Positions 18,001 through 21,000 of a stretch of 64,000 bases of DNA are shown in pieces. The position numbers were made by a program. Source of the DNA: Magallana gigas (taxonomy: Eukaryota); the NCBI RefSeq assembly GCF_963853765.1, contig NC_088854.1:11718001-11782000 (forward strand). Reading direction: 5' to 3'. Numbering within the stretch: the stretch's first letter is position 1; every line of letters starts with the position of its first letter.

Positions 18001-21000
18001 GTTTGCGAGTTTTGGAAAAGGTTCTTGGTTTACTTGGAATAATCTTCATAACTTCGATTTTTTGTGTTTTGTATTTTTTGTTTACATTTTCTTGTGGATA
18101 TTTTCAGATTAGCAAAAGTATTGAGCACAGAAGTTAACATTATTGCCACCAAGTTTTGCCAATGCTTAAATAAATTGGATGTAAGTATTTTATTATTGAA
18201 AACATATCACTTAGACACATACAGTATCCAAGATAGCTGTAACAAAATCACACAGTACAATGGGTACATAGTAGGTACACAGACCATTGTACCTCCATGG
18301 CATATGAATTCAAATGAAAAGTGTACTTACATAAATTTCATTTTAAAAAGCTAATTTCATGTTAAGTAGATGAACAATGTTTTGGTTTTGTAATATCATG
18401 TGAAATTCAATAATGTGCAGTATAAAAGAAGGGAGTTGGGTGGTAAATAATTGGTACAGACAATGATCTTGAGACTTATTTAAATTGTCTTTACTTATTC
18501 CCCCTGACATCTTTGAACAGTATAAGAAATGTACAGTAACCAAGAAGGATATTGTATAAAAATTCTATTTCAAAGCAATGCGGAATTTTTTACGTTTGAG
18601 TGTTCATCAACAAGCTTTCCTATCTGTTGTTTCTCTTGTAGGAGAATGAACATCCAGATATTACATCAGTGGTTACAAATATCTACTTGGAGGTATTTAT
18701 TACACAATTAAAAACTTATCTGGTAGAATTGCATGCATTTTCTTTCTGAAATTAAAAATTTTTGAAAAATTTTATTTAGGAAAACATGGATATACAATAA
18801 ATGTTTACCTTGAATTTACTGGAGTTCATATTGATTGTAGTTTTTTTTCAGGTCACTTGAGTCACTCAGTTGACCTATTGCTCACAGGCACCTGACGTCA
18901 TATATTTTTCTCATAATAAAAATAATACACCGCTTACCTAATAATACACAAGGTACCCATCCCCGCCATCTTGGATTTTTTTAAAACTGTCACATCGCCG
19001 TGAATTTTCGCTTATAACTCAGCGGTAACATTTTTCTGCGATCATCTCCGCCGTCCGATCGGTCACTCGATTTATTAGCTTACTGCTGATTCAACCAAAA
19101 CGGCCCATAACATCGTTTATTAATAAAAATATCTCCTCATTCTGCATCTACTGCTGCTGATTTGCGACAAAAGGCTAAAGGGTGGACGGAAGTTGACATC
19201 TTTGCGTCATCTTTTGGGATATCCCTTTTCTGATTGGTGCATTTTTTGCAGTATTTTATTAGGGAAAAAATGCACCAATCAGAAAAGGGATATCCCAAAA
19301 GATGACGCAAAGATGTCAACTTCCGTCCACCCTTTAGCCTTTTGTCGCAAATCAGCAGCAGTAGATGCAGAATGAGGAGATATTTTTATTAATAAACGAT
19401 GTTATGGGCCGTTTTGGTTGAATCAGCAGTAAGCTAATAAATCGAGTGACCGATCGGACGGCGGAGATGATCGCAGAAAAATGTTACCGCTGAGTTATAA
19501 GCGAAAATTCACGGCGATGTGACAGTTTTAAAAAAATCCAAGATGGCGGGGATGGGTACCTTGTGTATTATTAGGTAAGCGGTGTATTATTTTTATTATG
19601 AGAAAAATATATGACGTCAGGTGCCTGTGCTATTGCTATCTTTTTTGTCCCTCGTTGGTTGTAAACTTTTGGTCATTTTTAACTTCTTCTCTAAAACCAC
19701 TGAACCAATTTTAAGCAAATTTGGCATATACAAGTAGCATCTGTGGGTGAAGGGGAGTAAAAATTGGGAAATTCATGGCCCCTGCACCCCCATCCCATGG
19801 GCCTGAGGGGTGGAGTTAAAATCATAAAAATTCATGCAATCTTTTAAAAATCTTCTTTACTCCTGGACACCAACCAGTCAAACTGTTGGCATGATTGTAA
19901 TAAACATTGTGGTCTCTACCAAAATTGTGAAATTCATCATGGCCCCTAGGTAAAGGATTCTTGTGTTAAGGTGAGGCTTTAATGATTACCGGTATATAGT
20001 AAAAATGCCTTAATTCTTTGAAAATCTTCTCCTCTGCTCCTGGATATTAAGCTAATAAACTAAGCACATGTGTATAGTTATGATGAGGAAGAATGCCTCT
20101 TCCAAAATTGTTAAGTTCATGGCCCTTGGGTCAGGGAATTTGGTGTTAGGGTGGGGCTCTAAATGATTATATAGAGAAAATGCATGAATTCTTCAAAAAT
20201 CTTCTCCTCCGCTCCTGGATATTAAGCCCAAGTACTAAGTACACACATGCAGTTTTGATGAGGTAGAGAACCTCATCCAAAATTATTAATTTTTGGGTCA
20301 CAGGCTCGGGTGTTGGGGCAGGGCTCTAATTTTTATTAGAGTAAAGTGATGTAATTTCGACTGATTTATTTTATTGTACTTAAGATTTTTTAAATTTAGT
20401 GACTGTATGTTATGCTATAATTTTTGAATATTTTTTTTAGAATTAAGGAAGTTTATTTGATTAATCAATCATGGAATATTAAAAATGATTTCATTAGCCC
20501 TGTAATTATAATGCACATGAATATACATTGCAAAAGGCACACTGCAGTTGACTCAGGTGACCGATAAAGCCCATGGACCTCTTGCTATCGTTTAATGTTT
20601 GCTTTTATTCAAATTTCAAGATTTTATTTACCAACACCTGCAAAAGATACATTCAACCCATGCTATGGATTTTAGACAATATTGTTTTCCTTTTATAGTC
20701 CTCCAACAGTATCATGTACATCCAAGACGCGCTTCAGCTCCTGTTGCCATGCCTACAACAAGCTTCCATTCAGCGTTCCTTGACGTGATTGATAAACTGA
20801 CATTTGGAGAGAGATGCAGAAATATGTCATATCTATAAATTTTGTTACAAGATTTTGGTCATTAAATTACATCCTAAACACAAACGGGTTTCAGTTCTAA
20901 ATACAAATTTACTGAATACTGGTGTAACTTTAAAATACTGAATGTGTATTTATTAAGTCATATATAACAGTGATAGATGTGAAATTGTTTATGTTACATT

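What the first reader, a model, noticed from the sequence alone, without database searches (positions are those of the whole stretch)
18875..19637. 747-bp foldback with apparently perfect arms nested in a Helentron element inside a transcribed intron
Seen: two equal 365-bp arms with no mismatch detected by eye, a 17-bp spacer and an exact 8-bp TSD. It is inserted immediately after the 5' subterminal hairpin of a HINE-like element in the last FAM114A intron. Inference: a very recent insertion or ongoing arm homogenisation. The pre-mRNA would form ~365 bp of dsRNA (ADAR or Dicer substrate) and the DNA a cruciform-prone site.
Basis: partly seen in the sequence, partly recalled or inferred. Interest (0 to 1): 0.68.

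Follow-up and report, generated by a model that had tools for sequence, protein, structure and literature searches.

The report
Young foldback transposon in oyster intron
A 747-base mobile DNA element made of two perfectly mirrored halves has recently jumped into an intron of a Pacific oyster gene; it is a clean but ordinary example of a known kind of transposon.

Summary
Arms 18883-19247 and 19265-19629 are 365 nt and 100% complementary. The spacer is 17 nt and an exact 8-bp direct repeat (CTATTGCT) flanks the element. It lies in the last intron (18693-20692) of the expressed FAM114A2 gene of Magallana (Crassostrea) gigas. Within that intron it sits at the foot of the 5' hairpin of an older HINE-like element.

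I read it as a non-coding foldback (long-TIR) cut-and-paste DNA transposon. Its features fit Mutator-like elements best (TIR over 100 bp, 8-10 bp TSD). hAT or P cannot be excluded.

New evidence favours recent insertion over arm homogenisation. The element keeps CpG o/e 1.2-1.27, while the surrounding gene body is at 0.25 (Poisson P about 3e-8).

Each arm read from tip to centre has 0 ATG against 14 on the other strand. This suggests the arm is a promoter/leader end of a parent transposon, doubled by snap-back.

No eukaryotic DNA collection was available. Copy number, the autonomous partner, empty sites, RNA editing and small RNAs are therefore untested. Ordinary biology; modest interest.

The parts
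18875..18882 (.). Left copy of the 8-bp target-site duplication, CTATTGCT
   Evidence: identical to 19630-19637 and not extendable to 9 bp.
18883..19247 (+). Left arm (365 nt). The tip is CACAGG... Read tip to centre it has no ATG. It holds 18 CpG.
   Evidence: 100% complementary to the right arm; CpG o/e 1.27; 0 ATG against 14 on the other strand; 1 of 5000 dinucleotide shuffles has 0.
18885..18900 (.). Terminal motifs. A 10-bp imperfect palindrome CAGGCACCTG (18885-18894, middle two bases unpaired) overlaps an 8-bp perfect palindrome TGACGTCA (18893-18900). These are candidate transposase or promoter sites.
   Evidence: Read. TGACGTCA occurs 4 times in the window, 2 of them in the element. 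Function is inferred only.
18921..18949 (+). Two subterminal copies of the 10-mer AATAATACAC (18921-18930 and 18940-18949), mirrored in the right arm
   Evidence: D1, two exact copies 19 nt apart. A role as a binding site is inferred.
19248..19264 (+). 17-nt non-palindromic spacer. The inner arm ends next to it are T6 and A6.
19265..19629 (-). Right arm (365 nt), the exact reverse complement of the left arm
19630..19637 (.). Right copy of the 8-bp target-site duplication
18850..18876 (+). Host element 5' end: subTIR AGGTCACTTGAG (18850-18861) and complementary IR CTCAGTTGACCT (18865-18876), just after a T8 run. The TSD starts inside the last 2 nt of this hairpin.
   Evidence: pattern matches; hairpin -5.7 kcal/mol, z -3.13, 2 of 200 shuffles as good; HINE features from PMC7492417 and PMC4067079.
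19760..20330 (+). Host element central tandem repeats, about 3.3 monomers spaced 161-183 bp, 73-84% alike
   Evidence: families D1, D2, D4, D5; 19914-20180 against 20097-20345, 73%. TRF does not report them.
20530..20568 (+). Host element 3' inverted partner of the 5' end (includes the subTIR-like CTCAGGTGACCG at 20552-20563)
   Evidence: local alignment score 32 against 18843-18881; 0 of 500 shuffles reach it (maximum 22); 2 mismatches. The 12-mer alone is not significant (5 matches against 4.25 expected).
18600..18692 (+). Penultimate coding exon of FAM114A2 (3' part mapped); donor GT at 18693
   Evidence: tblastn of P0004 and P0021; donor context printed.
20693..20788 (+). Last coding exon of FAM114A2 with stop TGA at 20786-20788; acceptor AG at 20691-20692
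   Evidence: 29 of 29 residues identical to the M. gigas protein P0021.

Best explanation
This is a 747-bp non-autonomous cut-and-paste DNA transposon of the foldback (long terminal inverted repeat) type.

How it got here. A transposase supplied in trans bound the two identical ends, cut the element out of a donor site and joined it across an 8-bp staggered cut. Repair of that cut produced the CTATTGCT duplication. This step is inferred from the anatomy. The target lay at the foot of the 5' hairpin of an older HINE-like element, inside the last intron of Magallana gigas FAM114A2.

Why the arms are identical. The copy, or the foldback itself, is young. No mutation has yet hit either arm. The CpGs have not decayed, although the element sits in a strongly CpG-depleted gene body that is presumably germline-methylated.

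Superfamily. Unresolved. Long identical TIRs with an 8-bp TSD fit Mutator-like elements best (my estimate about 0.45). hAT is about 0.25, P/Galileo-like about 0.1, and other families take the rest.

Likely origin (inferred). One terminal piece of about 380 nt of a parent transposon, comprising tip, promoter-like motifs and an ATG-free leader, was doubled. The mechanism would be snap-back synthesis primed at the T6/A6 microhomology beside the spacer.

Expected consequence (inferred). The sense pre-mRNA folds into about 365 bp of perfect dsRNA before the intron is removed.
For: Shown:
- Perfect 365-nt arms, a 17-nt spacer and an exact 8-bp direct flank.
- The inverted repeat stops exactly at the flanks.
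- No coding capacity. The longest frames are 82 aa, with 0 Pfam families and 0 database relatives at E up to 10 (length band 45-144 aa only).
- No tandem subrepeats in the arms.
- Position in the last intron of an expressed gene.

Youth:
- CpG o/e is 1.27 in an arm (18 CpG). It is 0.25 in the gene without the element (42 CpG in 5868 nt) and 0.20 in the rest of the intron (7 CpG).
- At the gene's o/e about 3.5 CpG per arm would be expected. Poisson P is 3e-8 against the gene and 1e-9 against the intron.
- TG and CA are in excess in the gene (1.21-1.28) but not in the arm (0.99-1.10).
- In the oyster, methylated CpGs accumulate in gene bodies and young repeats, and DNA transposons are methylated at twice background (passages of PMC4378273).

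Superfamily:
- MULE and hAT occur in all molluscs surveyed (passages of PMC10294476).

Origin:
- 0 ATG tip-to-centre against 14 on the other strand. One of 5000 dinucleotide shuffles has 0 ATG, and 8 of 4998 background 365-nt windows have 0.
- Rare motifs cluster in the arm.
Against: - Only one copy could be examined. No other copy of the arm or of its 17-nt tip exists in the 64-kb window.
- No eukaryotic genome collection was on hand, so mobility, copy number and a partner transposase are not shown.
- None of the 147 ORFs of at least 70 aa in the window matches a transposase family.
- The arms lack the subterminal tandem repeats seen in Muta1-type and Drosophila FB-type foldbacks.
- CpG retention could also mean that the element escapes methylation rather than being young.
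- The ATG asymmetry and the motif list were noticed after looking, so their P values overstate the case.
- A perfect palindrome in an assembly always leaves some risk of artefact, and no reads were available.
Confidence: 0.8

Rival explanations
1. An old insertion whose arms are kept identical by continuing exchange between them, through intra-element gene conversion or mismatch repair of a hairpin or cruciform.
For: Perfect identity over 365 nt is what homogenisation would give. The DNA hairpin is very stable.
Against: Conversion fixes a C-to-T change about as often as it removes it, so CpG should still decay. The arms keep CpG o/e 1.27 inside a gene body at 0.25. Zero differences in 365 sites only bounds arm divergence below about 0.8% at the 95% level (my arithmetic), so no special mechanism is required.
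Confidence: 0.07
2. An assembly or sequencing artefact: a chimeric palindromic long read or a mis-join that doubled a single arm.
For: Perfect palindromes are a known failure mode of long-read libraries (recalled, from no call). No reads could be inspected.
Against: The palindrome is only 747 bp. It ends sharply at both tips and is bounded by a direct 8-bp repeat, not an inverted one. The two flanks are not complementary to each other at the junctions. An artefact would mirror the flank as well and would not resume the host element on the far side.
Confidence: 0.05
3. A local inverted duplication made by replication template switching or fold-back repair. One arm would be native host-element sequence and nothing transposed.
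For: The T6/A6 microhomology at the inner arm ends is what a snap-back event would use. The left flank of Cg_HINE elements holds a variable segment of 10-500 bp that could have served as template (PMC7492417, section 7).
Against: Such events do not create a direct 8-bp repeat at the outer ends. Both arms are CpG-rich (o/e 1.27), unlike the host element around them (0.20-0.22), so neither arm looks like old resident sequence.
Confidence: 0.04
4. A hairpin-RNA gene, for example a small-RNA source or a microRNA-like precursor, kept for its function rather than a selfish insertion.
For: It is transcribed in sense as part of an expressed pre-mRNA and folds into a perfect hairpin. Rfam microRNA-precursor models align to the apex.
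Against: All 12 Rfam matches that fall inside the element are below their gathering scores (best 73.7 against 96.2). They sit on the apex of a generic perfect stem. The TSD and the CpG state point to a new arrival, and no conservation could be tested.
Confidence: 0.04

Closest known systems
Mutator-like elements with long TIRs, for example Muta1 of Aedes aegypti and its short non-autonomous derivatives
   Same: Long, near-identical TIRs over 100 bp and an 8-bp TSD (8 or 9 bp for Muta1) with no target preference. The tip carries a 10-bp imperfect palindrome whose 5th and 6th bases are unpaired. That is the wording used for Muta1 in PMC5225508. Here it is CAGGCACCTG at arm positions 3-12.
   Different: Muta1 TIRs are 145 bp and contain 9 copies of a 12-bp subterminal tandem repeat. 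Here the arms are 365 bp with only two copies of a 10-mer. No MULE transposase could be linked to this element. The palindrome resemblance is one of form only and is weak statistically.
Galileo (P superfamily) and other Foldback-like elements of Drosophila
   Same: Long TIRs that make up most of the non-autonomous copies; cut-and-paste with a short TSD.
   Different: The Galileo TSD is 7 bp in most copies, and only three copies had 8 bp (passages of PMC4168063). No P-superfamily consensus is listed in the curated bivalve library passage I saw (PMC10294476). Classical FB arms are built of tandem subrepeats (recalled), which are absent here.
hAT-derived non-autonomous elements
   Same: An 8-bp TSD. 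hAT is the second richest DDE superfamily in bivalves. Long subterminal regions are needed by several hATs.
   Different: The TSD CTATTGCT has T at position 2 but C, not A, at position 7 of the Hermes preference nTnnnnAn. [quoted passage not shown] This element is perfectly symmetric.
Mu killer of maize
   Same: An inverted duplication of the TIR plus the 5' part of a transposon, read through from a host gene to give a long hairpin RNA (abstract start of PMC3440606 in the search listing). Here too, two copies of a putative tip-plus-leader region face each other inside a transcribed host gene.
   Different: Mu killer is about 4 kb of hairpin, includes transposase coding sequence, and its silencing effect is shown genetically. 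Here the parent element is unknown, the element has its own TSD, and no small-RNA or silencing data exist.
Cg_HINE / Pearl (non-autonomous Helentrons of oysters). This is the host element, not the foldback.
   Same: A 5' subTIR with a nearby complementary IR, central repeats of 140-180 bp in short arrays, a 3' subTIR and T-rich insertion sites (PMC7492417; PMC4067079), compared.
   Different: The 3' palindrome is not supported, there is no clear microsatellite, and about 215 bp separate the last repeat from the 3' subTIR. The family could not be assigned because the consensus sequences are in supplementary tables that were closed.

Membership tests
Foldback / long-TIR non-autonomous DNA transposon (MITE-like) | Inverted arms make up nearly the whole element | tested here: met
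   730 of 747 nt are arms, 100% complementary.
Foldback / long-TIR non-autonomous DNA transposon (MITE-like) | Target-site duplication directly abutting both tips | tested here: met
   Exact 8-bp CTATTGCT on both sides.
Foldback / long-TIR non-autonomous DNA transposon (MITE-like) | No transposase coding capacity | tested here: met
   Longest frames are 82 aa, with no Pfam match and no database relative at E up to 10 in the 45-144 aa length band.
Foldback / long-TIR non-autonomous DNA transposon (MITE-like) | Several dispersed copies with different flanks, and an autonomous partner sharing the termini | not testable with these tools
   No copy in the window. Only a prokaryotic DNA collection was open (0 hits). 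No oyster genome was available.
Classical FB / 'type 2 foldback' (arms built of tandem subrepeats) | Tandem subrepeats within the arms | tested here: not met
   The repeat finder at seed 6 finds only two copies of a 10-mer. TRF at score 30 finds none in the arms.
Mutator-like elements (MULE) | TIR over 100 bp | tested here: met
   365 bp; criterion from PMC5225508.
Mutator-like elements (MULE) | TSD of 8-10 bp | tested here: met
   8 bp; criterion from PMC5225508.
Mutator-like elements (MULE) | Related autonomous copy encoding a MULE DDE transposase | not testable with these tools
   No transposase domain among 147 ORFs in the window and no genome to search.
hAT | 8-bp TSD | tested here: met
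   criterion from PMC10368747.
hAT | Target preference nTnnnnAn (Hermes) | tested here: not met
   CTATTGCT has T at position 2 but C at position 7. This is a preference, not a rule, and only one site was seen.
hAT | Dissimilar left and right ends needed for activity (shown for Hermes) | tested here: not met
   The ends are identical over 365 nt. Hermes LE/LE and RE/RE constructs are almost inactive. It is unknown whether this holds for other hATs.
P superfamily / Galileo | TSD of 7 bp, rarely 8, together with long TIRs | tested here: inconclusive
   Long TIRs are met. An 8-bp TSD was seen in only three Galileo copies.
HINE (host element) | 5' subTIR a few nt from a T-rich boundary, with a complementary IR 1-12 nt (Cg_HINE) or 3-22 bp (DINE-1) away | tested here: met
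   The subTIR 18850-18861 starts 1 nt after a T8 run. The IR 18865-18876 is 3 nt away with 10 of 12 bases paired. Hairpin z -3.13; criteria.
HINE (host element) | Short array of central tandem repeats (140-180 bp in C. gigas) | tested here: met
   About 3.3 monomers spaced 161-183 bp; criterion.
HINE (host element) | 3' subTIR complementary to the 5' subTIR | tested here: met
   Alignment score 32, reached by 0 of 500 shuffles. The 12-mer alone has 2 mismatches and is not significant.
HINE (host element) | Palindrome or stem-loop after the 3' subTIR | tested here: inconclusive
   The fold of 20540-20600 is no better than shuffles (z +1.06; 177 of 200 fold as well). Only a 6-bp CCATGG is seen by eye.
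HINE (host element) | Microsatellite at the end of the left flank; right flank within about 60 bp of the last repeat | tested here: not met
   No microsatellite after the hairpin. About 215 bp lie between the last repeat (about 20330) and the 3' subTIR (20549).
Rfam microRNA-precursor families | Score at or above the family's gathering threshold | tested here: not met
   The best is MIR2593 at 73.7 bits against 96.2. All 13 matches in 18000-21000 are below threshold.

The most novel reading that the evidence does not exclude
The element may be a newly born 'transposon-killer' hairpin in an animal. On this reading the tip, promoter and ATG-free leader of a currently active oyster transposon were doubled by snap-back into a perfect foldback. 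The foldback then landed in a constitutively transcribed intron. Every FAM114A2 pre-mRNA would therefore deliver about 365 bp of perfect dsRNA matching the parent element's 5' end. That dsRNA would feed small-RNA or ADAR pathways that silence or mark the family, much as Mu killer does for MuDR in maize. If so, the locus would catch both the birth of a MITE and the start of its family's silencing.
Probability: 0.07. Interest if true: 0.6.

Novelty: new member of a known kind. Interest (0 to 1): 0.25.

Why it matters
By itself the element is one more DNA-transposon insertion in a transposon-rich oyster genome.

Its value is practical. A copy with perfect arms, an exact TSD and undecayed CpGs marks a family that was probably mobile very recently in Magallana gigas. 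It could lead to an active transposase, which would be useful as a genetic tool in a farmed mollusc. It could also yield presence/absence markers.

The locus is also a clean natural test case for two questions. One is how an invertebrate with gene-body methylation, ADAR and small-RNA pathways handles a long perfect intronic dsRNA. The other is how long a 365-bp palindrome with a 17-nt spacer survives in a germline.

The CpG contrast used here is a simple way to separate 'young' from 'homogenised' foldbacks in methylated gene bodies, and it needs no other copies.

Tried and rejected
1. Other copies in the window. blastn with word size 7 and E up to 10, using one arm as query, found only the two arms. 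The next best hit was 22 nt. The 17-nt tip with up to 3 mismatches matched only the two tips.

2. Other copies of the host element, which could have served as paralogous empty sites. None was found.

3. The host's own 3' inverted partner used as an uninterrupted paralogue of the target. The alignment passes the junction by only 2 nt (score 33 against 32). The right flank alone scores 20, and 39 of 1000 shuffles do as well. Inconclusive.

4. Family members sought through spurious ORFs in the 5.8-billion-protein set. The centre-spanning 82-aa frame had 3 word-sharing candidates and none at E up to 10, in the 45-144 aa length band only. This is no evidence about copy number.

5. The 24-nt tip in genome contigs (bacteria and archaea only). 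There were 0 matches, as expected.

6. Rfam found only sub-threshold microRNA-precursor hits on the apex.

7. Transposase domains. There were 0 among 147 ORFs of at least 70 aa (24, 123).

8. Tandem subrepeats in the arms. None was found.

9. The 3' palindrome of the host element is not supported.

10. Literature. 'foldback' + 'transposable element' + 'oyster' returned 14 papers. The 12 listed are, by title, on satellite DNA or other taxa. 'Crassostrea' + 'MITE' + 'target site duplication' + 'terminal inverted repeats' returned 17 papers, and none of the 15 listed describes such an element by title. I saw listings only, so this is weak evidence that the element is undescribed. Repbase could not be consulted.

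Not done:
- The exons were not joined into a spliced model. One exon was searched alone and database proteins were mapped back by tblastn.
- Supplementary tables of PMC7492417 (subTIR, IR and microsatellite consensus sequences, and Repbase matches) were closed. They might assign the host element to a named Cg_HINE family.
- Complex prediction, structure prediction and the protein atlas were not used, because no protein is involved.
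Full report
**Observation**

The inverted repeat is exactly as described. The arms are 18883-19247 and 19265-19629, each 365 nt and 100% complementary, with a 17-nt spacer between them. A script confirmed the match by direct string comparison.

The eight bases on each side, 18875-18882 and 19630-19637, are both CTATTGCT. Neither the direct repeat nor the inverted repeat can be extended by one more base. At the window's composition an 8-of-8 flank match has a chance of about 3e-5 (my arithmetic from GC 0.345).

Of 141 inverted-repeat pairs of at least 30 nt within 6 kb in the window, this is the only one with arms over 150 nt. 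The next longest are 75-82% matches inside a tandem array.

The stretch folds as RNA at -696 kcal/mol (shuffles -182, z -57) and as DNA at -476 kcal/mol (z -77). The window has no N.

**Where it is**

An exon at 16213-16575 matches Pfam DUF719, the FAM114A family (E 4e-24).

I searched that exon alone and did not join exons into a spliced model. It found 703-708-aa proteins at 99-100% identity, and named oyster FAM114A2-like proteins at 85-90%. The best cluster contains 'protein FAM114A2 [Magallana gigas]'. That protein is 100% identical to the window over four exon segments: 252 of 252, 44 of 44, 84 of 84 and 29 of 29 residues. The window is therefore Pacific oyster.

Mapping these proteins back by tblastn puts the gene on the + strand from 14171 to 20788. 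The penultimate exon ends at 18692 (donor GAG|GTATTT). The last exon starts at 20693 (acceptor TTTTATAG|TCC). The foldback occupies 747 of the 2000 nt of the last intron.

The cluster has 143 members. Many sit on contigs of 2.3-3.6 kb that carry the whole 707-aa reading frame. Those contigs can only be spliced mRNA. So the gene is expressed and this intron is removed.

**The host element**

I took the defining features from passages and section 7 of PMC7492417 and from passages of PMC4067079.

Features that are met:
- A 12-nt subTIR (18850-18861) starts one base after a T8 run.
- A complementary IR lies 3 nt further on (18865-18876), with 10 of 12 bases paired.
- That hairpin folds better than 198 of 200 shuffles (z -3.13).
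- About 3.3 central repeats are spaced 161-183 bp. Oyster HINE arrays have monomers of 140-180 bp.
- A 3' inverted partner lies at 20530-20568. Its alignment score of 32 was reached by 0 of 500 shuffles.
- Both flanks are T-rich.

Features that are not met or are unclear:
- The fold of the 3' palindrome region is no better than shuffles (z +1.06).
- There is no clear microsatellite.
- About 215 bp lie between the last repeat and the 3' subTIR, rather than the 60-bp right flank described.

The short 12-mer match at the 3' end is not significant on its own (5 matches against 4.25 expected). I therefore call the host 'HINE-like, partly supported'.

**What the foldback is**

It has no coding capacity. 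The longest frames are two mirror-image 82-aa frames across the centre. They have no Pfam match and no relative at E up to 10 in the protein set (length band 45-144 aa).

The arms contain no tandem subrepeats, only two copies of the 10-mer AATAATACAC 19 nt apart near the tip. The tip reads CACAGG. A 10-bp imperfect palindrome sits at arm positions 3-12, and a perfect 8-bp palindrome, TGACGTCA, overlaps its end.

A discrete unit bounded by a direct 8-bp duplication is the signature of a cut-and-paste DNA transposon that integrates across an 8-bp staggered cut. This is established knowledge. The step itself is inferred here.

An assembly palindrome or a fold-back repair event would mirror the flanks or leave no direct repeat. 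Here the flanks are not complementary, and the host element resumes on the far side.

**Which superfamily**

This cannot be settled from one copy.

- MULE: passages of PMC5225508 state that typical MULEs have TIRs over 100 bp and 8-10-bp TSDs, and that Muta1 makes 8- or 9-bp TSDs with no target preference. This fits best.
- hAT: it also makes 8-bp TSDs. Two points count against it. The TSD matches the Hermes preference nTnnnnAn at position 2 only. Hermes elements with two identical ends are almost inactive (PMC10368747, section 14), whereas this element is perfectly symmetric.
- P/Galileo: Galileo has long TIRs, but its TSD is 7 bp in most copies.
- Background in molluscs: MULE and hAT are present in all molluscs surveyed. 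Novosib, 'Zisrupton' (so spelled in the passage) and Merlin are almost restricted to cephalopods (passages of PMC10294476).

My split is MULE about 0.45, hAT about 0.25, P-like about 0.1, and other families the rest.

**Recent insertion or homogenised arms?**

Zero differences in 365 sites only bounds arm-to-arm divergence below about 0.8% at the 95% level (my arithmetic). Perfect arms alone therefore need no special mechanism.

An independent clock is available. The FAM114A2 gene body without the element has CpG o/e 0.25 (42 CpG in 5868 nt). The rest of the last intron is at 0.20 (7 CpG in 1245 nt). TG and CA are in excess there (1.19-1.28).

Each arm has 18 CpG, with o/e 1.27 and no TG or CA excess. 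At the gene's o/e about 3.5 CpG per arm would be expected. The Poisson P for 18 or more is 3e-8, or 1e-9 against the intron.

In the oyster, methylated CpGs accumulate in gene bodies and in young repeats, and DNA transposons carry twice the background methylation (abstract and passages of PMC4378273).

Gene conversion between the arms would not protect CpGs, because it fixes a change about as often as it erases it. The undecayed CpGs therefore favour a recent arrival. The host HINE-like sequence, at o/e 0.22, is older, which is consistent with the nesting.

Caveat: the element might instead escape methylation.

**A lead on its origin**

Read from tip to centre, the arm has no ATG at all. The other strand has 14. 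One of 5000 dinucleotide-preserving shuffles has 0 ATG, and 8 of 4998 background 365-nt windows (both strands) have 0.

Several motifs that are rare in the window cluster in the arm:
- TGACGTCA: 4 in the window, 2 in the element.
- CCAATCAG: 4 in the window, 2 in the element.
- AAGATGGCGG: 3 in the window, 2 in the element.
- AGGTAAGC: 2 in the window, both in the element.

Their usual names (CRE, CCAAT box, YY1-like or start context, 5' splice site) are recalled, not tested.

An ATG-free stretch that begins behind a palindromic tip with an adjacent TATA-like run is what the promoter and leader of a transposase gene would look like. The inner arm ends are T6 and A6, flanking a non-palindromic spacer.

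I therefore propose that about 380 nt of one end of a parent transposon folded back on this 6-nt microhomology and was copied. That would give a two-ended, perfectly symmetric, mobilisable element.

This is inference only. These features were noticed after looking, so the P values overstate the case.

**Consequences**

The sense pre-mRNA should form about 365 bp of perfect dsRNA. [quoted passage not shown] Editing of this hairpin is therefore an ordinary expectation, not a novelty.

Rfam gives only sub-threshold microRNA-precursor matches on the apex (best 73.7 bits against a gathering score of 96.2).

By eye, the sense strand of the element carries an acceptor-like TTTTTTGCAG at the spacer and a donor-like AG|GTAAGC at 19574/19575. 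A 323-nt cryptic exon using them would hit a stop at its 18th codon. I did not score these sites. All transcript-derived proteins I saw carry the normal last exon.

**What could not be done**

No eukaryotic DNA collection was available. Copy number, an autonomous partner, empty sites, read support, methylation, editing and small RNAs are therefore all untested. Supplementary tables that might name the host HINE family were closed.

**Verdict**

The feature is real, correctly observed and largely correctly interpreted. It is a young foldback-type DNA-transposon insertion, probably MULE-like, nested in an older HINE-like element in a transcribed intron. It is a new member of a known kind. Interest is modest (0.25).

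The boldest reading not excluded is a Mu killer-like hairpin made from the parent transposon's 5' end (abstract start of PMC3440606 in the search listing). I give it a probability of about 0.07.

Noticed in passing
window 23854-24564 (the inverted repeat continues at least 25 nt further out on both sides): A second foldback-like structure with 123-nt arms 89% complementary, 465 nt apart. Its interior and arms are built of 21-bp tandem units containing CATGTCGACATG-like palindromes. It lies between SNF-family (SLC6) transporter exons on the - strand. Unlike the finding, it has the tandem-subrepeat architecture of classical foldback elements.
   Followed up: partly
window 12881-14081, with a nested pair at 13134-13971: An element with 71-nt TIRs 99% complementary, flanked by a direct TATGTC on both sides. 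It ends about 90 bp upstream of the FAM114A2 start codon at 14171. A second inverted pair (89 nt, 89%) is nested inside it. It may be a DNA transposon sitting in the gene's promoter region.
   Followed up: partly
window 1-10000 and 14001-22000, compared with 24001-64000: The CpG o/e landscape is bimodal. It is 0.15-0.49 over the CFAP97-like, HMG-box and FAM114A2 genes, and mostly 0.6-1.17 over the two SLC6 transporter genes and the TRIM-like gene. This fits methylated housekeeping genes next to unmethylated regulated genes.
   Followed up: no
window 18883-19247 (and its mirror image): The arm has 0 ATG when read tip to centre, against 14 on the other strand. The + strand ATG-free run starting at 18802 is 469 nt, the second longest on that strand in the window.
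   Followed up: partly
window 19241-19251 and 19573-19580, + strand: Inside the element, in the sense of the host gene, there are an acceptor-like TTTTTTGCAG and a donor-like AGGTAAGC. The 8-mer AGGTAAGC occurs only in the element's two arms (+ at 19573, - at 18932). A cryptic exon using them would carry an early stop. Seen by eye and not scored.
   Followed up: no
window 4190-5794, + strand: An open frame of 534 aa has no Pfam match. It lies in a stretch with strong AT skew (0.22) and very low CpG (o/e 0.16), downstream of an HMG-box frame at 3052-3681. It may be a low-complexity exon of that gene.
   Followed up: no
window 5888-6710 and 14168 onward: An older UniProt model (K1RRP7, 783 aa, P0022) joins three small upstream segments at 5888-6710 to FAM114A2. 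The current 707-aa NCBI protein starts at 14171. This is probably a merged gene model.
   Followed up: no
window 22744-41038 and 54669-61606, - strand: Two tandem SNF-family (sodium:neurotransmitter symporter) genes, each spread over many small exons. Between them lie a single-exon B-box/NHL (TRIM-like) frame at 45308-46831 and a ribosomal protein S18 domain exon at 47820-48098.
   Followed up: no
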